Sequence record: OM982647
Reading direction: 5' to 3' (one strand)
Origin: Escherichia phage ST2
Length of the DNA stretch: 64,000 nt
Below are positions 29,742-50,307 of this stretch, one piece after another (within the stretch, counting starts at the first letter, position 1; every line of letters starts with the position of its first letter). Position numbers and translations under genes: made by a program. The notes below the pieces were generated by a model. That model was given only the letters and a program-made list of their open reading frames with translations, did no database searches and was not told where the DNA came from.

Positions 29742-30731
29742 TCATTTATAGTATGAATTGTGGTTTTCTAAATAGACTTGCTCAAGGAAATCATCCCAGA
29801 AACTCATATCTACTTTTTGTTGCATACCGTTCTTAGCGGCTTGTTCCGATGCTTGTTCAACTTGGCCAACGATATCTTCTAGGAATTCTTGTACAGTTTT
29901 AAACGTATGTTTACCAAGCTTAACATCGAGAATAAATGGAGCATCCTGAAGTGGGTAAACCAGGTCGCCGGTTTTGTAAATTTCCAATAGTTGAAGTCCA
30001 CCACGACATGCATGACTCAATGCTTTCCAGTCAATACCTTCGTTAGCTTCTGCCTTACGAGCACGTTCGCCATAGTTCTCTTCTAGTTTAACCAGGATGG
30101 CATTGAACTCTTTATTGGTTAATGTGTCTTGGAATTTACGGTCTAACAGATTATAGAATGTTTGCTTACCTGTTTTCTCGTTTTCGGTTTCAACCCATGA
30201 AGCAAATTCACCTATAGGCAGAACATTCTTCATATGTGATAAACGAATTACTGCACCGTTATCAAAGTATTGTCCCCATTCATTAGAACGTTTAAGGGCT
30301 TGACGAAGAACAGCCAGTCGAGAACCCTTGACACCATATTTAGAAGCTTGCTTACGGACATACCCTAAATAAGATTTCATGTTAGTGGTATAGAAACGAG
30401 ACCTGTTATCTTGAATATACTTCCATACATCAGGCAAATCAGATTTAACTACTAGACTTTGTGGAGTGTGAAGCATATCTAATGCGACGGTTTCACCAAC
30501 CGCAGCTAGTTTAAAGAAATATTTGAGACTATATAACTCATGGTCCACGTCGTCTTTTGTGTTCTTCGAAGCAGTGTTGTTAGTGTTCTTGCTCATATGT
30601 TCTTTAACGTTACCAGTCAAGATATCACGAGCATGAGGGACATAAATTTCTTTAAAATCGACGTCAGATTCAGGAGTAGACGTTCCATAAAGGTGGCTAC
30701 CAAAGTAGCCTTTCATAATTGTTTTCATCAT
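29742..30731 (-). CDS. nucleotidyltransferase-fold protein
   Basis: 329 aa; GSHLYGTSTPESDVD (GS-x9-13-DxD pattern). Confidence 0.55.
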   Translation of the reverse strand: MMKTIMKGYFGSHLYGTSTPESDVDFKEIYVPHARDILTGNVKEHMSKNTNNTASKNTKDDVDHELYSLKYFFKLAAVGETVALDMLHTPQSLVVKSDLPDVWKYIQDNRSRFYTTNMKSYLGYVRKQASKYGVKGSRLAVLRQALKRSNEWGQYFDNGAVIRLSHMKNVLPIGEFASWVETENEKTGKQTFYNLLDRKFQDTLTNKEFNAILVKLEENYGERARKAEANEGIDWKALSHACRGGLQLLEIYKTGDLVYPLQDAPFILDVKLGKHTFKTVQEFLEDIVGQVEQASEQAAKNGMQQKVDMSFWDDFLEQVYLENHNSYYK

Positions 30732-40988: not shown

Positions 40989-41229
40989 CTCGGTCCCATG
41001 ATTTGGCCATCAATTCGGACATAAATTCTTCAATGCGCGTTTCTTTAGACGGACTTTCACTATTAGAGACCGCAAGTTTGTAATCTGCAATAGGACGGAA
41101 CAAATCAAGGTCCATATTAAGATCGTCTTTGATTTTTTCTTCTGACACATCTTTATCGTATGTGTACAGATAACTATCACATGATTCTGATTTAATGTAA
41201 ATTGCTATACTCATCTCAAATTCCTGCAT
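40978..41229 (-). CDS. hypothetical protein
   Basis: 83 aa acidic ORF. Confidence 0.5.
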   Translation of the reverse strand: MQEFEMSIAIYIKSESCDSYLYTYDKDVSEEKIKDDLNMDLDLFRPIADYKLAVSNSESPSKETRIEEFMSELMAKSWDRDDE

Positions 41230-41702
41230 TCGGTAATAAAACGTTCAACTTCATTATTCTTGGCTTTTATCTTGTCTTTATGTTCTTGTAAACTACTTTT
41301 AATAAGATTAATAATGATGGCAGCGGTACCACCGCCAATGATGCCACCAACAACACTTATGATACTAGATGCTAATAAGATAGCAATAATATCAACAAAA
41401 CCGAAAGAACTCACCTTAGTACTAAAAAACCACACTGACGGTACAAATATAATCCATCCTGTTATCCATTGGCACTTATTGAAAAACTTTTCAAGCTCAG
41501 CTTGAGTTGTTCGTATTACTTCATCGATAGGTTGATATCCGTTAATGTATCTGTTCACAATAATACCTGCTGGCTGGTCGATTTTAAATTCTTGGCAAAT
41601 ATGTTTCACTAAGTAGGATGGACATCCTGTCCAATCTACTGAATAGTATGAAATACCTTCATTGCCATCGTCTATATTAGACCAATATGTTTTGTTAATC
41701 AT
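41211..41702 (-). CDS. hypothetical membrane protein
   Basis: 163 aa; two hydrophobic helices with Gly-rich segment. Confidence 0.5.
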   Translation of the reverse strand: MINKTYWSNIDDGNEGISYYSVDWTGCPSYLVKHICQEFKIDQPAGIIVNRYINGYQPIDEVIRTTQAELEKFFNKCQWITGWIIFVPSVWFFSTKVSSFGFVDIIAILLASSIISVVGGIIGGGTAAIIINLIKSSLQEHKDKIKAKNNEVERFITECRNLR

Positions 41703-42388
41703 TACCAGCCTTCCATAGGGAATTCCAGATAAACTTGGGCGTTGACACGAATTTCATTGGTAATCTTTTTAACTCGGTCTGTATTACGAGATACACGTCC
41801 GAACCAACGCCATCCATTACTAATTGCACGAGAACCAGTGTGCCATGTTTGCCAATCAAACTGAAGAAGAGTACGATCTGGAGCTTCCCATTTCTCTAGT
41901 TCGCCTTTTTCGATTTTTTCGAGGACTTCTTTGTGCCACTGACGATAGATAAGTTCGCCATCAGGAATCTGACTGAACTCTGCAGTTCCTGTTGCAAAAT
42001 GAGTAGGACACACATCAGCGTTAACAAGACCAAGAATATGTTCAGAATGGTAACGAGGGTTGTCATAGTCAGGTTGTCCTGCAGTAATAAAGTGTTGACC
42101 AACTGGAATATCAGGGCGTGGTACGTCATCATGGTGATAGCCTGGGATTGCAGGATACCAACCAGGCATCAGCATGTGGACTCGTGAATCAAATACAACC
42201 TGGTCGGTGTTCCAATCATCAGGCAAGTTCATAATGAAAGAGCGAGTAATAGGACCGCCGTTATTATAAGCAAATTCTAAACTACAGTTGAAGAACATAG
42301 GCTCGTTCTTGATTTTATCATTAGAAATGCTACCGGCAAAACCACCTACTGCACGAGCTTGACTATTAAACACTTTAGAACTATTCAT
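41702..42388 (-). CDS. hypothetical protein (His-rich motifs)
   Basis: 228 aa; GYHHDD and HSEH motifs, fold not assigned. Confidence 0.5.
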   Translation of the reverse strand: MNSSKVFNSQARAVGGFAGSISNDKIKNEPMFFNCSLEFAYNNGGPITRSFIMNLPDDWNTDQVVFDSRVHMLMPGWYPAIPGYHHDDVPRPDIPVGQHFITAGQPDYDNPRYHSEHILGLVNADVCPTHFATGTAEFSQIPDGELIYRQWHKEVLEKIEKGELEKWEAPDRTLLQFDWQTWHTGSRAISNGWRWFGRVSRNTDRVKKITNEIRVNAQVYLEFPMEGW

Positions 42389-42389
42389 A

Positions 42390-42695
42390 TTATTTTCCTC
42401 GACATTCTTTAATGAAATTTTCTAGATTGGTAGATTCAATAGCTTTTTTACGAGCTTCTGCGTGTTCTTCTTCAGACAATTTACGTTTATAATTGACCCA
42501 GACATTATGGTCTAAACCAGTTGTGGCATATAATATCAAAGCTCCGACGAATAATAAAAACGGCGATAAAAATATACAACCAGGAACACCATCCATACTG
42601 TAAGCCTTTTGTAATACTGCAACAGAAAGAGTTGCGTAAAAAAGTGATGCAAATATTGTAAAAAGACCAATTCGGTTGGTTTCGCCTAATTTCAT
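42390..42695 (-). CDS. hypothetical membrane protein
   Basis: 101 aa; two hydrophobic helices. Confidence 0.5.
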   Translation of the reverse strand: MKLGETNRIGLFTIFASLFYATLSVAVLQKAYSMDGVPGCIFLSPFLLFVGALILYATTGLDHNVWVNYKRKLSEEEHAEARKKAIESTNLENFIKECRGK

Positions 42696-42702
42696 AATAT
42701 TC

Positions 42703-42752
42703 TCCTCATGTTTTAATAGGACTACTATAACATAGCCCTATAATTGTGTAAA
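42703..42752 (-). promoter_or_regulatory. early promoter/stem-loop cassette (near-identical copy A)
   Basis: Minus strand GTTTAC-N18-TATAGT inside ATAGGGCTA/TAGTCCTAT inverted repeat. Confidence 0.5.
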
Positions 42753-42766
42753 CAGTTTTTGTGAAG

Positions 42767-43723
42767 TTATTTGAAAGGTTTTACTATATGGAAATTTTGT
42801 TTGAAACGTTTTACGTAATCGTCGTGTCCTAAGCTTTGGTACATACTTACAACTTTGCTGTAGTTTTCCCAGGCGTATTCACGGAACCAACCGGAGGTGA
42901 TGCTTGTGCAGACTTTTTCTAATGCCATCATGAAACTGGCTTCAGGGTTAATTTCAAAGTTATTAGGAATCTGAGAACGTTCTAACGCTAGTACACATGA
43001 TTCTTCGTATACACCGGCCAATTTGACCATTTCCGGTAATGATTCGAACTTCTCGCGTGAGGTCATGACTTCAGAACCATCTTTCATATAAAATGTATAC
43101 GCTGGGCGGTCTGTTAGTGCAATGGCTTCATGAATAGTATCATGGTCATATGTATAGATGTCATCTTTAAAGAACGCACTTTTAGAAGTGTCAAGAACCG
43201 GGTGAGCATAGTTCAAAGTTTCTTTCTGGCGTTTCAGCATAATTTCAGTAAGTTCATCGTTCAGTGTAACACCTTTACCACGAAGATACTGAATATGGTT
43301 CGTAGTCTTTAAAAAGAATGGATTATTTTTCTTGAAACGATGAGACATCTTAATTGCAAGGCACATCTCAGGAGTTGCCCAGTAAAACCCGTTCAAACGG
43401 TCTTTAGACAAATTTTTCTCGGCGTATTTTAAAAGGTCATAAGAAGACGTGAAATCTTCAGGAGTGAGTTCACCGACTAATTCACGGACATTAGTGATTG
43501 CCGGAACAATATATGCTTCAAAATGAGTTTCGCGCCCATTATGGAAGCATTTGAAAACTTGGACATCAGGGTTATCTTGGTGAACATATACACCCATCAT
43601 TTGATTTTTGAATGCATTCCAAGAACCTTGGTCCGCAATAAAGTCCCAATCGCTATTTTTGATAGCGCTAGAATCAATAAGACCATGATAGTGAAGTGCA
43701 CGAGAACCAATAACTAACATCAT
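42767..43723 (-). CDS. hypothetical protein, possible nucleotidyltransferase fold
   Basis: 318 aa; IGSRALHYHG...SDWDF resembles GS-x-DxD pattern. Confidence 0.45.
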   Translation of the reverse strand: MMLVIGSRALHYHGLIDSSAIKNSDWDFIADQGSWNAFKNQMMGVYVHQDNPDVQVFKCFHNGRETHFEAYIVPAITNVRELVGELTPEDFTSSYDLLKYAEKNLSKDRLNGFYWATPEMCLAIKMSHRFKKNNPFFLKTTNHIQYLRGKGVTLNDELTEIMLKRQKETLNYAHPVLDTSKSAFFKDDIYTYDHDTIHEAIALTDRPAYTFYMKDGSEVMTSREKFESLPEMVKLAGVYEESCVLALERSQIPNNFEINPEASFMMALEKVCTSITSGWFREYAWENYSKVVSMYQSLGHDDYVKRFKQNFHIVKPFK

Positions 43724-43751
43724 AATATTTTCCTCGGATTAATTCATCAAC

Positions 43752-44003
43752 TTAAATTTCACGACATGCGATATTATATTCATCCCATAGGTCATCATGT
43801 GAAGCCTCTACCAATGGAACGATTGTACCGTTTATGTCTTCATTATAAGGGCAAATTGTACAGTGCGCATCTTCGAATCGGATGCCTTTGTGTTCAGATT
43901 TTTTATAACGCATATCGAATATCTTTGCAAACTTTTCACGAGTAATAGTTTTAGCAACTACTTCGGTTCCAATACTTTCGTAATAAATCATTGTGGTCTC
44001 CAT
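43752..44003 (-). CDS. hypothetical protein
   Basis: 83 aa with Cys/His residues. Confidence 0.5.
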   Translation of the reverse strand: METTMIYYESIGTEVVAKTITREKFAKIFDMRYKKSEHKGIRFEDAHCTICPYNEDINGTIVPLVEASHDDLWDEYNIACREI

Positions 44004-44010
44004 TTAATTT

Positions 44011-44052
44011 GATAGGACTACTATAACATAGCCCTATCTTGTTGTAAACTGT
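44011..44052 (-). promoter_or_regulatory. early promoter/stem-loop cassette (near-identical copy B)
   Basis: Same about 40-bp element as 42703-42752 and 51769-51812. Confidence 0.5.
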
Positions 44053-44053
44053 T

Positions 44054-44251
44054 TTAGCAAGAATAACTAGATGATACCCAGCCTTGAACAGTAATGCTAT
44101 TATTAGATAATGAGATTGCGTTCTGGAGATTCAGACCTGCGTTATCTTCAATCCATAATGTAACTTCTTCGCGTTCTTCTGTTGCAATTTGGAACAGGTT
44201 TTCTAGAGCAGCTACTGCGGTACGTACAGCACAATCTAATTCACGAGACAT
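44054..44251 (-). CDS. small protein, paralog family with C-terminal GWVSSS..C motif
   Basis: 65 aa ending QGWVSSSYSC. Confidence 0.5.
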   Translation of the reverse strand: MSRELDCAVRTAVAALENLFQIATEEREEVTLWIEDNAGLNLQNAISLSNNSITVQGWVSSSYSC

Positions 44252-44260
44252 ATGGTTTCC

Positions 44261-44533
44261 TTAGCAAGTGTGAGAAGATGCAACCCAACCGCCATCTTCA
44301 AGGCTCAGGTTGTAGTCGTATTGGTAAACGTCAGCCCATTCAGCATAGCCGTTTTTTGTACAACGTTCAAGATCGGCTTTAAGATGTCCGGGCGAATGAT
44401 AGGTTCCACCCATACCATAAGCTGGATACAAGTCGAATGTTGTGTTTTGTTTATCAGCAATTTCTTTGGCAGCATCAATAGCTTCATAGATTTTTGCTAC
44501 GGCTTCAGCCAGTTCGGTTTGTTCTTTAGACAT
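44261..44533 (-). CDS. small protein, paralog family with C-terminal GWVASS..C motif
   Basis: 90 aa ending DGGWVASSHTC. Confidence 0.55.
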   Translation of the reverse strand: MSKEQTELAEAVAKIYEAIDAAKEIADKQNTTFDLYPAYGMGGTYHSPGHLKADLERCTKNGYAEWADVYQYDYNLSLEDGGWVASSHTC

Positions 44534-44542
44534 AATGATTCC

Positions 44543-44848
44543 TTAGCACAATGCAGAAGACGAAACCCAAGCACCTTCAGTAATAATGTAACCATTACCT
44601 TCACGCTTAACATCGCCGCCATTATTTTCAATTTCATCTTTCATCCACTGGGATACGATTTCACCCTTAGGATAATAAGTACGTCCGCTACCATAATCAC
44701 CTACAGAAAATGATACGGCATATTGGTCTGCGATCTTTGTTGCTTCTTCTTCGATACGTTCAGCTTGATTCAGAAGTTTATAAATTGCATCTGAAGCGGA
44801 TTTGGCATCATTAAACTCTGGTACTTTAATTTCAATAATCTTACTCAT
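44543..44848 (-). CDS. small protein, paralog family with C-terminal AWVSSS..C motif
   Basis: 101 aa ending EGAWVSSSALC. Confidence 0.55.
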   Translation of the reverse strand: MSKIIEIKVPEFNDAKSASDAIYKLLNQAERIEEEATKIADQYAVSFSVGDYGSGRTYYPKGEIVSQWMKDEIENNGGDVKREGNGYIITEGAWVSSSALC

Positions 44849-45204
44849 TTTCTACATTCCTTAATAAAGTTTTCGATTGTTTCATTTTCACGTCTAGCTA
44901 AGAGTTCATTATAACTAATCATTTGAGAAGCGTAAACCTTTTTATTTTTCTTATTATGGTTTATAAAATCGTAGTAAAAATAGACTACAGTACAAAAGGA
45001 TGCGATGGATGCAAAGGCTTGGGTATACCGTAAGTCCTGCCATTGGTCTGTGAATCCACCGGTATTCCCTATAAATCCTAACACAACGCCGTCAATAAGA
45101 AATCCAACTAATCCAAAGGCAAATCCCATGCCAATACTCATAATAAAAATTAGAATGTTCTCACCAAGAGACGGCCATACAGTTAAGAGTTGAGGCTTTT
45201 GCAT
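44845..45204 (-). CDS. hypothetical membrane protein
   Basis: 119 aa; multiple hydrophobic helices. Confidence 0.5.
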   Translation of the reverse strand: MQKPQLLTVWPSLGENILIFIMSIGMGFAFGLVGFLIDGVVLGFIGNTGGFTDQWQDLRYTQAFASIASFCTVVYFYYDFINHNKKNKKVYASQMISYNELLARRENETIENFIKECRK

Positions 45205-45608
45205 CTTATTTCCTTAACGAATTCCATAGCTTCTTCATATTCATATTTTTTAACAGCTTCATCATACTGAGCTTGGGCTTTTGCGCACTGAACTTTCCAT
45301 TCTCTTAATCGAGCTCTATAATGACGTCCTTGGTACCAATATCCCACCCAGTTAATAGGCATTAATAAAAATGGCACAATAAACGACCCGGCTATAATAA
45401 GTAAAAACACTGCATCAGACGATATAACTTCACTAGAATCTAAAATAGCTCCTATAATCATAAAGATTAAAAATGCTAAAGCTAAAATAGGGCCAAATAG
45501 TACTTCGTTTGGGATTAATTTACGTTTGTATTCGTATGCCCAGGGCTTAATTGGCATGTACAGGGTTGGCTTTGACATATTCTCTACATTCCATAATAAA
45601 TTGCTCAA
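45183..45608 (-). CDS. hypothetical membrane protein
   Basis: 141 aa; two hydrophobic helices. Confidence 0.5.
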   Translation of the reverse strand: MSNLLWNVENMSKPTLYMPIKPWAYEYKRKLIPNEVLFGPILALAFLIFMIIGAILDSSEVISSDAVFLLIIAGSFIVPFLLMPINWVGYWYQGRHYRARLREWKVQCAKAQAQYDEAVKKYEYEEAMEFVKEIRCKSLNS

Positions 45609-46170
45609 GGATTAAATTGTTAGTGAAATTAGGACTAACAACCATAGTTTCATAAAGCGCATCAATAGCACTTAAAGCATCAACTCTTTTAAGCAAAGGC
45701 TTGCCTTCATACATAGTTTCAGAATCGACGATTAACGTAAAGTAATATTTTTTATTATCGACTAGAACTTCTGTGTCGATATAAAACATATTAGACCTCA
45801 GAAGCTTATCTCTAAAACCATAATAATCTTCTGAACGTTCGCTGATATATTCCCATTCAGTGTTTAAACAACAAACAGACCACGTAGGAGCAACGAAATC
45901 AGTGAATCTAATATCATGGTCTGCAACTAGTTTAGCAATAGCTCCGATATCATGAATCATAATACCTGGGGCTAATAAAGATTTTCTGCTATGGCTAGCC
46001 GTTTTCTCAGTAGTCTCATAAGAAGACGACCAGTACCATTTACGTCCAGTTGCAACATATCGTAATGAATCAACTAAAGACGTAGGTGGATTTACCTTAT
46101 CTCGGAACTCTTCGAACATTGAGTCAATATCATTATTTTGGTTTCGCATGTTAACTCCTTTATTATCCAA
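45547..46170 (-). CDS. hypothetical protein
   Basis: 207 aa; exact start uncertain. Confidence 0.5.
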   Translation of the reverse strand: MDNKGVNMRNQNNDIDSMFEEFRDKVNPPTSLVDSLRYVATGRKWYWSSSYETTEKTASHSRKSLLAPGIMIHDIGAIAKLVADHDIRFTDFVAPTWSVCCLNTEWEYISERSEDYYGFRDKLLRSNMFYIDTEVLVDNKKYYFTLIVDSETMYEGKPLLKRVDALSAIDALYETMVVSPNFTNNLILEQFIMECREYVKANPVHAN

Positions 46171-50073: not shown

Positions 50074-50149
50074 TGGTCGAGACAGTAGGGATCGAACCTA
50101 CGACCTAGGACTTAGAAGGTCCTTGCTCTTCCTTCTGAGCTATGCCTCG
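50074..50149 (-). tRNA. tRNA-Arg (anticodon UCU)
   Basis: Manual cloverleaf: acceptor CGAGGCA/TGTCTCG, D-arm GCTC..GAGC, anticodon loop CTTCTAA, T-arm GTAGGTTCGATCCCTAC, encoded CCA. Confidence 0.8.
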
Positions 50150-50153
50150 TATT

Positions 50154-50228
50154 TGGCGGACGTGCATGGATTCGAACCATGGGCCAATTGATTAACAGTC
50201 AACTGCTCTACCACTGAGCTACACATCC
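50154..50228 (-). tRNA. tRNA-Asn (anticodon GUU)
   Basis: Acceptor GGATGTG/CACGTCC, anticodon loop CTGTTAA, T-arm CCATGGTTCGAATCCATG, encoded CCA. Confidence 0.8.
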
Positions 50229-50232
50229 AAAT

Positions 50233-50307
50233 TGGTGGCCCTGGCTGGTTTCGATCCAGCTACCTATCAGTTATGAGCTGACAGCTCTCCCATTGAGCTA
50301 CAGGGCC
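50233..50307 (-). tRNA. tRNA with CAU anticodon (Met or Ile)
   Basis: Acceptor GGCCCTG/CAGGGCC, anticodon loop CTCATAA, T-arm GCTGGATCGAAACCAGC, encoded CCA. Confidence 0.75.

What the first reader, a model, noticed from the sequence alone, without database searches (positions are those of the whole stretch)
42767..43723. Second putative nucleotidyltransferase-fold protein
The 318-aa protein begins MMLVIGSRALHYHG...SDWDF, matching the GS-x(n)-[DE]x[DE] pattern of Pol-beta-superfamily nucleotidyltransferases. It is flanked by membrane proteins and a His-motif protein (41702-42388).
Basis: inference. Interest (0 to 1): 0.4.

Follow-up and report, generated by a model that had tools for sequence, protein, structure and literature searches.

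The report
Phage nucleotidyltransferase with tailed small-protein partners
A T4-like phage gene does encode a nucleotidyltransferase-fold enzyme, fused to a new and highly conserved helical domain. It almost always sits just downstream of tandem small acidic proteins that end in the same Trp-x-Ser-Ser-Ser-x-x-Cys tail, which suggests an uncharacterised virus-only enzyme-partner module.

Summary

The most likely function is an active NMP-transferase with a composite active site acting on, or controlled by, these tail proteins. That last step is inferred, not shown. A MenT-like tRNA-directed activity is the main rival. Verdict: new variant of a known kind.

The parts
42767..43723 (-). Gene for the 318-aa enzyme (homologue of RB69ORF134c): DUF7277 (aa 2-101) plus DUF7275 (aa 120-305); the stop codon is at 42767-42769
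   Evidence: ORF list. Pfam DUF7277 E 9.6e-28 and DUF7275 E 7.2e-78. phrog_2141 E 3e-149. 97.5% identical to JS09_047, annotated as similar to RB69ORF134c.
43412..43723 (-). N-terminal Pol-beta-type nucleotidyltransferase domain (aa 1-104), with G6-S7, D25-x-D27 and E69
42770..43411 (-). C-terminal all-helical domain (aa 105-318, DUF7275). K125, H128, K139, T140, H194, D195, H198, E240, E241, E248, R249, S277, G278 and R281 are invariant in 262 homologues
44054..44251 (-). Small acidic tail-motif protein, 65 aa, ending ...VQGWVSSSYSC-stop (RB69ORF136c-like; phrog_4882)
   Evidence: pI 4.1.
44261..44533 (-). Small acidic tail-motif protein, 90 aa, with internal AYGMGGTY and ending ...GGWVASSHTC-stop (RB69ORF137c-like; phrog_899)
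   Evidence: pI 4.6.
44543..44848 (-). Small acidic tail-motif protein, 101 aa, with internal DYGSGRTYYP and ending ...GAWVSSSALC-stop (RB69ORF139c-like; phrog_899)
   Evidence: pI 4.6.
43752..44003 (-). 83-aa ORF between the tail proteins and the enzyme (RB69ORF135c-like; phrog_3723). Function unknown, and not conserved outside T-even-like phages
44020..44048 (-). Sigma-70/T4-early-like promoter match (TTTACA-17-TATAGT with TG) just upstream of ORF135c and the enzyme. Pattern match only
   Evidence: Similar matches at 44936-44908 and 42752-42724. No terminator-like site on the minus strand between 44936 and 42767.
41702..44848 (-). Block present here and in RB69/JS09 but absent from T4, where e.2 directly abuts e.3. 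It holds ORF132c, ORF133c, the enzyme, ORF135c and the three tail proteins
   Evidence: JS09 annotation compared with T4 annotation. T4 has no enzyme and no tail ORF anywhere.

Best explanation
The gene encodes an active, probably early-expressed phage nucleotidyltransferase. Its N-terminal Pol-beta-type domain belongs to the AbiEii/MenT and ANT(2'')/LnuA structural neighbourhood and supplies the GS loop and the D25/D27/E69 metal-binding carboxylates that hold NTP and Mg2+. The much more conserved helical DUF7275 domain packs against it and supplies the rest of a composite active site, including K125 and probably the H128, H194-D195, H198, E240-E241 and E248-R249 cluster. That part would provide nucleotide and acceptor recognition. 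The enzyme transfers an NMP to a hydroxyl or thiol acceptor. The most likely acceptor, or else the direct regulator, is the invariant C-terminal tail W-x-S-S-S-x-x-C-COOH of the small acidic proteins encoded in tandem immediately upstream. Shown here: the fold, the conserved triad, the novelty and conservation of the C-domain, the virus-restricted distribution, and the two-way genomic linkage with the tail proteins. Inferred: catalytic activity, the composite site, and above all the identity of the acceptor.
Confidence: 0.55

Rival explanations
1. It is a MenT-like RNA 3'-end nucleotidyltransferase. The enzyme would add nucleotides to tRNA acceptor ends or other RNA 3' ends, either to shut down host translation or to repair or protect tRNAs. 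The upstream small proteins would be protein inhibitors or regulators, comparable to the short MenA1 antitoxin encoded upstream of MenT1.
Against: The enzyme family is acidic (median pI 5.96), which is unusual for a tRNA-binding enzyme. tRNA genes lie within 6-8 kb in only 8 of 60 diverse loci, mostly T-even-like. An inhibitor would not be expected to occur as 2-5 divergent paralogues that share only an invariant 8-residue C-terminal tail. No MenT motif IV equivalent was identified. The window protein itself does not match PF08843.
Confidence: 0.22
2. The conserved DUF7275 domain is the real catalytic unit, for example a metal-dependent hydrolase or phosphoesterase using its His/Asp/Glu cluster. 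The N-terminal NTase-like part would be a degenerate ligand-binding or structural remnant.
For: DUF7275 is far more conserved than the N-domain. It has 3 invariant His and 4 invariant acidic residues. The short subfamily lacks most of the NTase beta-sheet and the third carboxylate. A calcineurin-like phosphoesterase lies directly downstream in 16 loci, which hints at phosphoester chemistry in the neighbourhood.
Confidence: 0.13
3. It is a small-molecule nucleotidyltransferase like ANT(2'') or LnuA. It would modify a metabolite, antibiotic or immune signalling nucleotide, and the small proteins would be linked only by shared residence in a hyperplastic genome region.
Against: The two-way, strand-specific and order-specific linkage with the tail proteins spans phages that are only about 40% identical and otherwise lack shared synteny. 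That is not expected from chance co-residence.
Confidence: 0.1

Closest known systems
AbiEii / MenT (DUF1814, Pfam PF08843) nucleotidyltransferase toxins, e.g. M. tuberculosis MenT1 (PDB 8an4), MenT3/TglT (6j7n), MenT4 (6y56)
   Different: The window protein has no PF08843 match. Its helical part is about 215 aa, roughly three times larger than the MenT C-lobe, with its own invariant His/Asp/Glu/Arg set and no structural relative. It is virus-encoded, acidic and not in a two-gene toxin-antitoxin locus. Its partners are 1-5 paralogous proteins with an invariant C-terminal tail.
ANT(2'')-Ia (AadB, 4xje) and lincosamide nucleotidyltransferase LnuA (4wh5)
   Different: Those are about 160-180-aa resistance enzymes of bacteria and plasmids with small-molecule substrates. 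There is no sequence similarity to them, no DUF7275 equivalent, and a different genomic context.
MntA-HepT (MNT/HEPN), where a minimal NTase poly-adenylylates its partner protein
   Same: Precedent for a small Pol-beta NTase that covalently nucleotidylylates a protein encoded next to it (PMC7641770, listed).
T4 NrdC.11 / RlaP-type nucleotidyltransferase, the other NTase in this window (29742-30731, minus strand)
   Same: Also a phage-encoded Pol-beta-superfamily protein with an N-terminal hGS...DxD motif.
   Different: No detectable relationship by hhalign (probability 0.1). Different Pfam family (RlaP). Present in T4, whereas the DUF7277-DUF7275 gene is not.

Membership tests
Pol-beta nucleotidyltransferase superfamily | Core alpha/beta fold with hG[GS] before a helix, [DE]h[DE]h on the next strand and a third carboxylate on a later strand | tested here: met
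AbiEii/MenT (DUF1814, PF08843) | Match to the family profile at Pfam's gathering score | tested here: not met
   The window protein and 67 close relatives have no PF08843 hit even at E<=1. In the short subfamily, 20 of 117 members hit at E<=1 and at least one (P0360) exceeds the cut-off (25.1 vs 22.5 bits). It is therefore a distant relative, not a member.
AbiEii/MenT (DUF1814, PF08843) | Motif III Lys and motif IV Asp in the helical C-lobe (MenT1 K137, D152; PMC10435456) | tested here: inconclusive
AbiEii/MenT (DUF1814, PF08843) | tRNA 3'-end nucleotidyl transfer and growth toxicity neutralised by a cognate antitoxin | not testable with these tools
   Needs biochemistry and genetics. Context gives little support: tRNA genes are near the enzyme in 8 of 60 loci.
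MNT-HEPN modules | Adjacent or fused HEPN domain with an Rx4-6H motif | tested here: not met
HD-domain phosphohydrolases (considered for DUF7275) | HD fold with an H...HD...D metal site | tested here: not met
RiPP / lanthipeptide-type systems (considered for the module) | Known modifying-enzyme domains (LanB/LanM/LanKC/LanC, YcaO, rSAM, RRE) next to precursor peptides | tested here: not met
   None of these domains appears in the enzyme or its neighbours. The only resemblance is tandem precursor-like genes with a variable helical N-part and an invariant Ser/Cys C-terminal segment.

The most novel reading that the evidence does not exclude
The enzyme and the tail proteins form a new virus-specific post-translational modification system. 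The NTase would nucleotidylylate a Ser, or the terminal Cys, of the invariant W-x-S-S-S-x-x-C-COOH tail. The product could be a stable protein-nucleotide conjugate. Alternatively the nucleotide could act as a leaving group for dehydration and Cys cross-linking, giving a lanthionine-like ring. Either way a set of modified small acidic effector proteins would be made early in infection. This would be the first RiPP-like or protein-NMPylation cassette common to T4-like, jumbo and other phages, and it would use an enzyme class not known for this chemistry.
Probability: 0.2. Interest if true: 0.85.

Novelty: new variant of a known kind. Interest (0 to 1): 0.6.

Why it matters
DUF7275/DUF7277 proteins occur in about 1.4% of sequenced phage genomes (733 of 50,697 records). 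They also form about 1,600 clusters at 50% identity in metagenomes, and they are present in giant viruses and actinobacterial prophages. No function is known for any of them. This work gives the family a testable biochemical identity: an AbiEii/MenT-related nucleotidyltransferase with a composite active site. It also names a concrete candidate substrate or partner with a sharply defined eight-residue motif. That turns an anonymous hypervariable-region gene of RB69-type phages into a simple experiment: co-expression, mass spectrometry and radiolabelling. MenT/AbiEii enzymes are bacterial toxins and abortive-infection effectors, so a phage-borne derivative may reveal a new host-takeover or counter-defence mechanism, or a new kind of protein modification.

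Tried and rejected
1. Sequence searches of the PDB found nothing relevant. I used the protein, its family profile and the short-subfamily profile.
2. NCBIfam and PADLOC gave only chance-level hits.
3. hhalign against the window's RlaP-type NTase showed no relationship.
BFVD returned only unnamed family members, though it showed giant-virus homologues.
5. An apparent fusion of small protein and enzyme in L107/L108 was rejected. The small ORF is in another frame and ends about 20 bp before the enzyme ATG.
6. A tRNA or RNA-repair neighbourhood was rejected as a general feature (8 of 60 loci).
7. Other neighbour clusters (ribonucleotide reductase, DNA ligase, NAMPT, calcineurin-like phosphoesterase) each occur in 5 or fewer of the 15 lineage groups.
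8. The annotation 'sulfurtransferase' near the small proteins in phage F31 belongs to the e.3 membrane protein and appears to be an annotation artefact.
9. Two source names for homologues, 'prohead assembly scaffold protein' and 'HNS-dependent expression A', have no support from fold or context.
10. The hypothesis that the tail is a conserved DNA element was rejected on codon evidence.
11. Homology between ORF132c and the DSS3_VP1 protein next to the enzyme is marginal (BLASTP E 0.064, no Pfam hit) and was left open.
12. Literature searches for the DUF names, RB69ORF134c, phage RiPPs with nucleotidyltransferases, and C-terminal-Cys small proteins found nothing on this family.

Full report
OBSERVATION. 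The ORF exists at 42767-43723 but on the minus strand. It starts with ATG, encodes 318 aa, and begins MMLVIGSRALHYHGLIDSSAIKNSDWDF. A GAGGA ribosome-binding site lies 8 nt upstream. The window comes from an RB69/JS09-type T-even phage (Mosigvirus): T4-type lysozyme, NudE and DenV genes lie just downstream. The protein is 97.5% identical to JS09_047, annotated 'similar to RB69ORF134c hypothetical protein'.

The GS-x17-DxD pattern alone carries little weight. Of 87 window ORFs of at least 100 aa, 13 contain the loose pattern and 5 the stricter hG[GS]...[DE]h[DE]h form. What matters is its conservation. In 262 homologues drawn from clusters at 50% identity, G6 is 99%, S7 97%, D25 98% and D27 100% conserved. 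A third carboxylate, E69, is 92% E plus 6% D.

WHAT THE PROTEIN IS. Pfam splits it into two domains of unknown function: DUF7277 (aa 2-101, E 1e-27) and DUF7275 (aa 120-305, E 7e-78). PHROGs places it in phrog_2141, function unknown. NCBIfam, PADLOC and PDB sequence searches give nothing.

An AlphaFold2 model built on 67 diverse homologues is confident (mean pLDDT 93.3, pTM 0.87). Its N-terminal part has the order strand, GS-helix, strand (DxD), helix, three strands (E69 on the last). The rest is all helical.

A sequence-level link emerged later, in a short (about 250-270 aa) subfamily from actinophages and actinobacterial prophages. There, 20 of 117 members match Pfam AbiEii (PF08843) over the GS...DxD stretch. 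The best match is E 2e-5 at 25.1 bits, above the 22.5-bit gathering score. Three members match DUF2204, another NTase family. The nearest known relatives are AbiEii/MenT and ANT(2'')/LnuA-type enzymes.

THE C-TERMINAL DOMAIN. DUF7275 makes up two thirds of the protein and is much better conserved than the NTase part. K125, H128, K139, T140, H194, D195, H198, E240, E241, E248, R249, S277, G278 and R281 are 100% invariant in the 262 sequences.

The short subfamily is instructive. Streptomyces phage Beuffert gp203 and Gordonia phage Bachita gp17 have lost most of the beta-sheet, including E69. They still keep 'LVGSRAL...NDVDYF' joined directly to the C-domain, with K125, H128, HD..H, EE and ER intact. 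This retention argues that the GS/DxD element and the C-domain cluster form one composite active site. That is an inference, because coordinates could not be inspected.

DISTRIBUTION. The protein matches 733 of 50,697 phage records. These include T-even relatives of Escherichia, Klebsiella, Enterobacter, Serratia, Yersinia, Aeromonas and Acinetobacter, plus phAPEC8-like, Otagovirus, Stenotrophomonas, Vibrio, roseophage, Streptomyces and Gordonia phages. It also matches 2,220 clusters at 90% identity and 1,585 clusters at 50% identity.

Foldseek against BFVD adds giant viruses (Sylvanvirus, Satyrvirus) with longer proteins. Among one genome each of 185,579 prokaryotic species, only five loci were found, all on MAG contigs. 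The actinobacterial genome copies sit among SSB, DnaB, WhiB, Prim-Pol and endonuclease VII genes, which marks them as prophages. The family is thus essentially viral. Phage T4 lacks it entirely.

THE NEIGHBOURHOOD: A CONSERVED PARTNER. I clustered all ORFs in 80 viral loci found with the enzyme. Only one neighbour family is broadly conserved: small proteins of 60-125 aa, in one to five tandem copies, immediately upstream on the same strand.

They share three features:
- an amphipathic N-terminal helix
- often a 'YG(M/S)GGTYYP' motif
- an almost invariant extreme C-terminus, W-x-[SA]-S-S-x-x-C-stop, with a shorter variant W-x-x-S-S-C-stop

In the window these are 44054-44251 (...VQGWVSSSYSC), 44261-44533 (...GGWVASSHTC) and 44543-44848 (...GAWVSSSALC). 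They belong to phrog_899 and phrog_4882, have no Pfam family, no named homologue and no PDB relative. They are strongly acidic: the median pI of 54 non-redundant members is 4.4.

The linkage holds on every test run:
- Forward: 75 of 80 loci, and all 15 lineage groups, have a tail ORF ending at most 2.5 kb upstream. There are 199 tail ORFs on the enzyme's strand against 1 on the other strand, and only one lies downstream.
- Spacing: in several lineages the last small ORF ends about 10-50 bp before the enzyme's start codon.
- Reverse: a search with the small protein found 37 loci. Of these, 34 carry the enzyme 0-1.6 kb downstream, and two of the three exceptions are contigs that end right after the match.
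- Co-absence: the complete T4 genome contains neither the enzyme nor a single tail ORF. In T4, e.2 directly abuts e.3, exactly where this window carries ORF132c, ORF133c, the enzyme, ORF135c and the three tail proteins.
- Protein-level selection: the tail Ser positions use both TCN and AGY codons, and Cys uses both TGC and TGT, across 109 distinct tail DNA sequences.

Limits of this linkage:
- Five of the 80 loci lack tail ORFs.
- The roseophage and all examined actinophage and prophage members lack them.
- The actinobacterial subfamily instead has its own family of one to three tandem small proteins directly downstream, with the motif RYFRxxGYxDSYxG...EVxP. This rests on four loci only.
- In the window an unrelated 83-aa ORF and a T4-early-like promoter match lie between the tail genes and the enzyme. 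No terminator-like site separates them.

MECHANISM. Most likely the protein is an active NMP-transferase. D25, D27 and E69 would bind Mg2+ and the NTP, as in other Pol-beta enzymes. K125 would play the role of the C-lobe lysine of AbiEii/MenT (motif III; PMC10435456). The invariant His/Asp/Glu/Arg surface of DUF7275 would bind the base and the acceptor.

I judge the tail proteins the best candidate for the acceptor or the direct regulator, for four reasons. The gene linkage runs both ways. The small proteins are paralogous. An invariant eight-residue tail parallels an invariant enzyme domain. The enzyme is acidic (family median pI 5.96), which fits a protein substrate better than tRNA. MntA-HepT gives a precedent for a minimal NTase that nucleotidylylates its gene neighbour (PMC7641770, listed). 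The acceptor assignment is inference only.

RIVALS.
- A MenT-like tRNA or RNA 3'-end transferase, with the small proteins as MenA1-like inhibitors. The structural neighbours and the upstream position of MenA1 support it. The acidic enzyme, the rarity of nearby tRNA genes (8 of 60 loci) and the multi-paralogue invariant tail weaken it.
- DUF7275 as the true catalytic unit, with the NTase part a remnant. The domain's conservation and the truncated forms support it. Retention of GS/DxD and the absence of any hydrolase fold weaken it.
- A small-molecule NTase like ANT(2'') or LnuA, with only coincidental linkage to the small proteins.

COMPARISON AND NOVELTY. The protein works like, and is distantly related to, AbiEii/MenT-type nucleotidyltransferases. 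It fails the family's profile test and carries a large domain with no known relative, so it should not be filed as a member.

The two Pfam DUF entries show the family has been catalogued. Literature searches found nothing on its function, its fold assignment or the tail-protein partnership. I rate it a new variant of a known kind.

The most novel reading not excluded is a virus-specific protein-tail modification system, either NMPylation or a nucleotidyl-activated Ser/Cys cross-link. I give this about 20% probability.

VERDICT. The added value is a composite-site model, a virus-restricted distribution, and a sharply defined candidate partner that makes the function directly testable.

Noticed in passing
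window 44054-44251, 44261-44533, 44543-44848 (minus strand); loci L005-L121: Family of small acidic proteins (phrog_899/phrog_4882, no Pfam) with an invariant extreme C-terminus W-x-[SA]-S-S-x-x-C-stop and often an internal YG(M/S)GGTYYP motif. They occur in 1-5 tandem copies upstream of the enzyme in 75 of 80 loci. T4 has none. This became part of the main explanation.
   Followed up: yes
window 29742-30731 (minus strand): A second, unrelated Pol-beta-superfamily protein (329 aa, FGSHLYGTSTPESDVDF at residue 10). It matches Pfam RlaP, 'RNA repair pathway DNA polymerase beta family' (E 1.7e-12), and by motif and Pfam family appears to correspond to T4 NrdC.11, which the T4 record annotates as a nucleotidyltransferase (no direct comparison was run). 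hhalign finds no relationship to the target.
   Followed up: partly
window 41211-41702, 42390-42695, 44845-45204, 45183-45608, 45547-46170 (all minus strand); also L026: Five neighbouring proteins, most of them small and hydrophobic (e.2, RB69ORF133c, e.3, e.4, e.5), end in a shared C-terminal motif: (E)NFIxECR(K/G), e.g. ERFITECRNLR, ENFIKECRGK, ENFIKECRK, EFVKEIRCK, EQFIMECRE. The same ending recurs in a related phage locus. They may be a paralogous family, or a recombination or regulatory cassette at gene ends.
   Followed up: no
L134:5801-6797, L135:5770-6858, L003:5630-5965, L128:4600-4887: In the short actinophage/prophage subfamily the enzyme is followed directly by 1-3 tandem small proteins (about 95-125 aa) of a different family, with the motif RYFRxxGYxDSYxG...EVxP (alignment A8). 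A second case of tandem small proteins attached to this enzyme family; only four loci were examined.
   Followed up: partly
window 41702-42388 (minus strand) and L129:3099-3755: The 228-aa 'His-motif' protein (RB69ORF132c, phrog_1843) has no Pfam or PDB match. It shows marginal similarity (BLASTP E 0.064 over 103 aa) to the 218-aa protein encoded just upstream of the enzyme in roseophage DSS3_VP1. In the 80 viral loci it co-occurs with the enzyme in only 2 of 15 lineage groups.
   Followed up: partly
window 41702-44848 compared with T4 67652-68319 (L131): Relative to T4, where e.2 abuts e.3, the window carries a 3.1-kb insertion holding ORF132c, ORF133c, the enzyme, ORF135c and the three tail proteins. 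T4-early-like promoter matches (TTTACA-17-TATAGT/TATAAT) lie on the minus strand at 42752, 44048, 44936, 46862 and 47148.
   Followed up: partly
L050:5788-6714 (and L074): In one metagenomic lineage that lacks tail ORFs nearby, the enzyme gene appears split into a 55-aa N-terminal ORF and a 209-aa C-terminal ORF. This may be a frameshift, a pseudogene or an assembly error. Its close relatives L047 and L048 have an intact gene.
   Followed up: no
L084:8275-9015 and 15 other loci: A calcineurin-like metallophosphoesterase (Pfam Metallophos, E 3e-15) lies about 0.3 kb downstream of the enzyme in 16 loci from 3 lineage groups, mostly jumbo-phage contigs.
   Followed up: no
BFVD hits A0A3G5AJ90 (Sylvanvirus, 508 aa) and A0A3G5AE53 (Satyrvirus, 571 aa): Giant viruses of eukaryotes encode longer DUF7275 proteins that match the whole model (Foldseek E 1e-14 and 1e-11). 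Their extra 200-250 residues were not examined.
   Followed up: no
window 50074-50307 (minus strand): Three tRNA genes (Arg-TCT, Asn-GTT, Met-CAT) lie about 6.3 kb upstream of the enzyme, at the position of the T4 tRNA cluster. Proximity to tRNA genes is not conserved outside T-even-like phages.
   Followed up: yes
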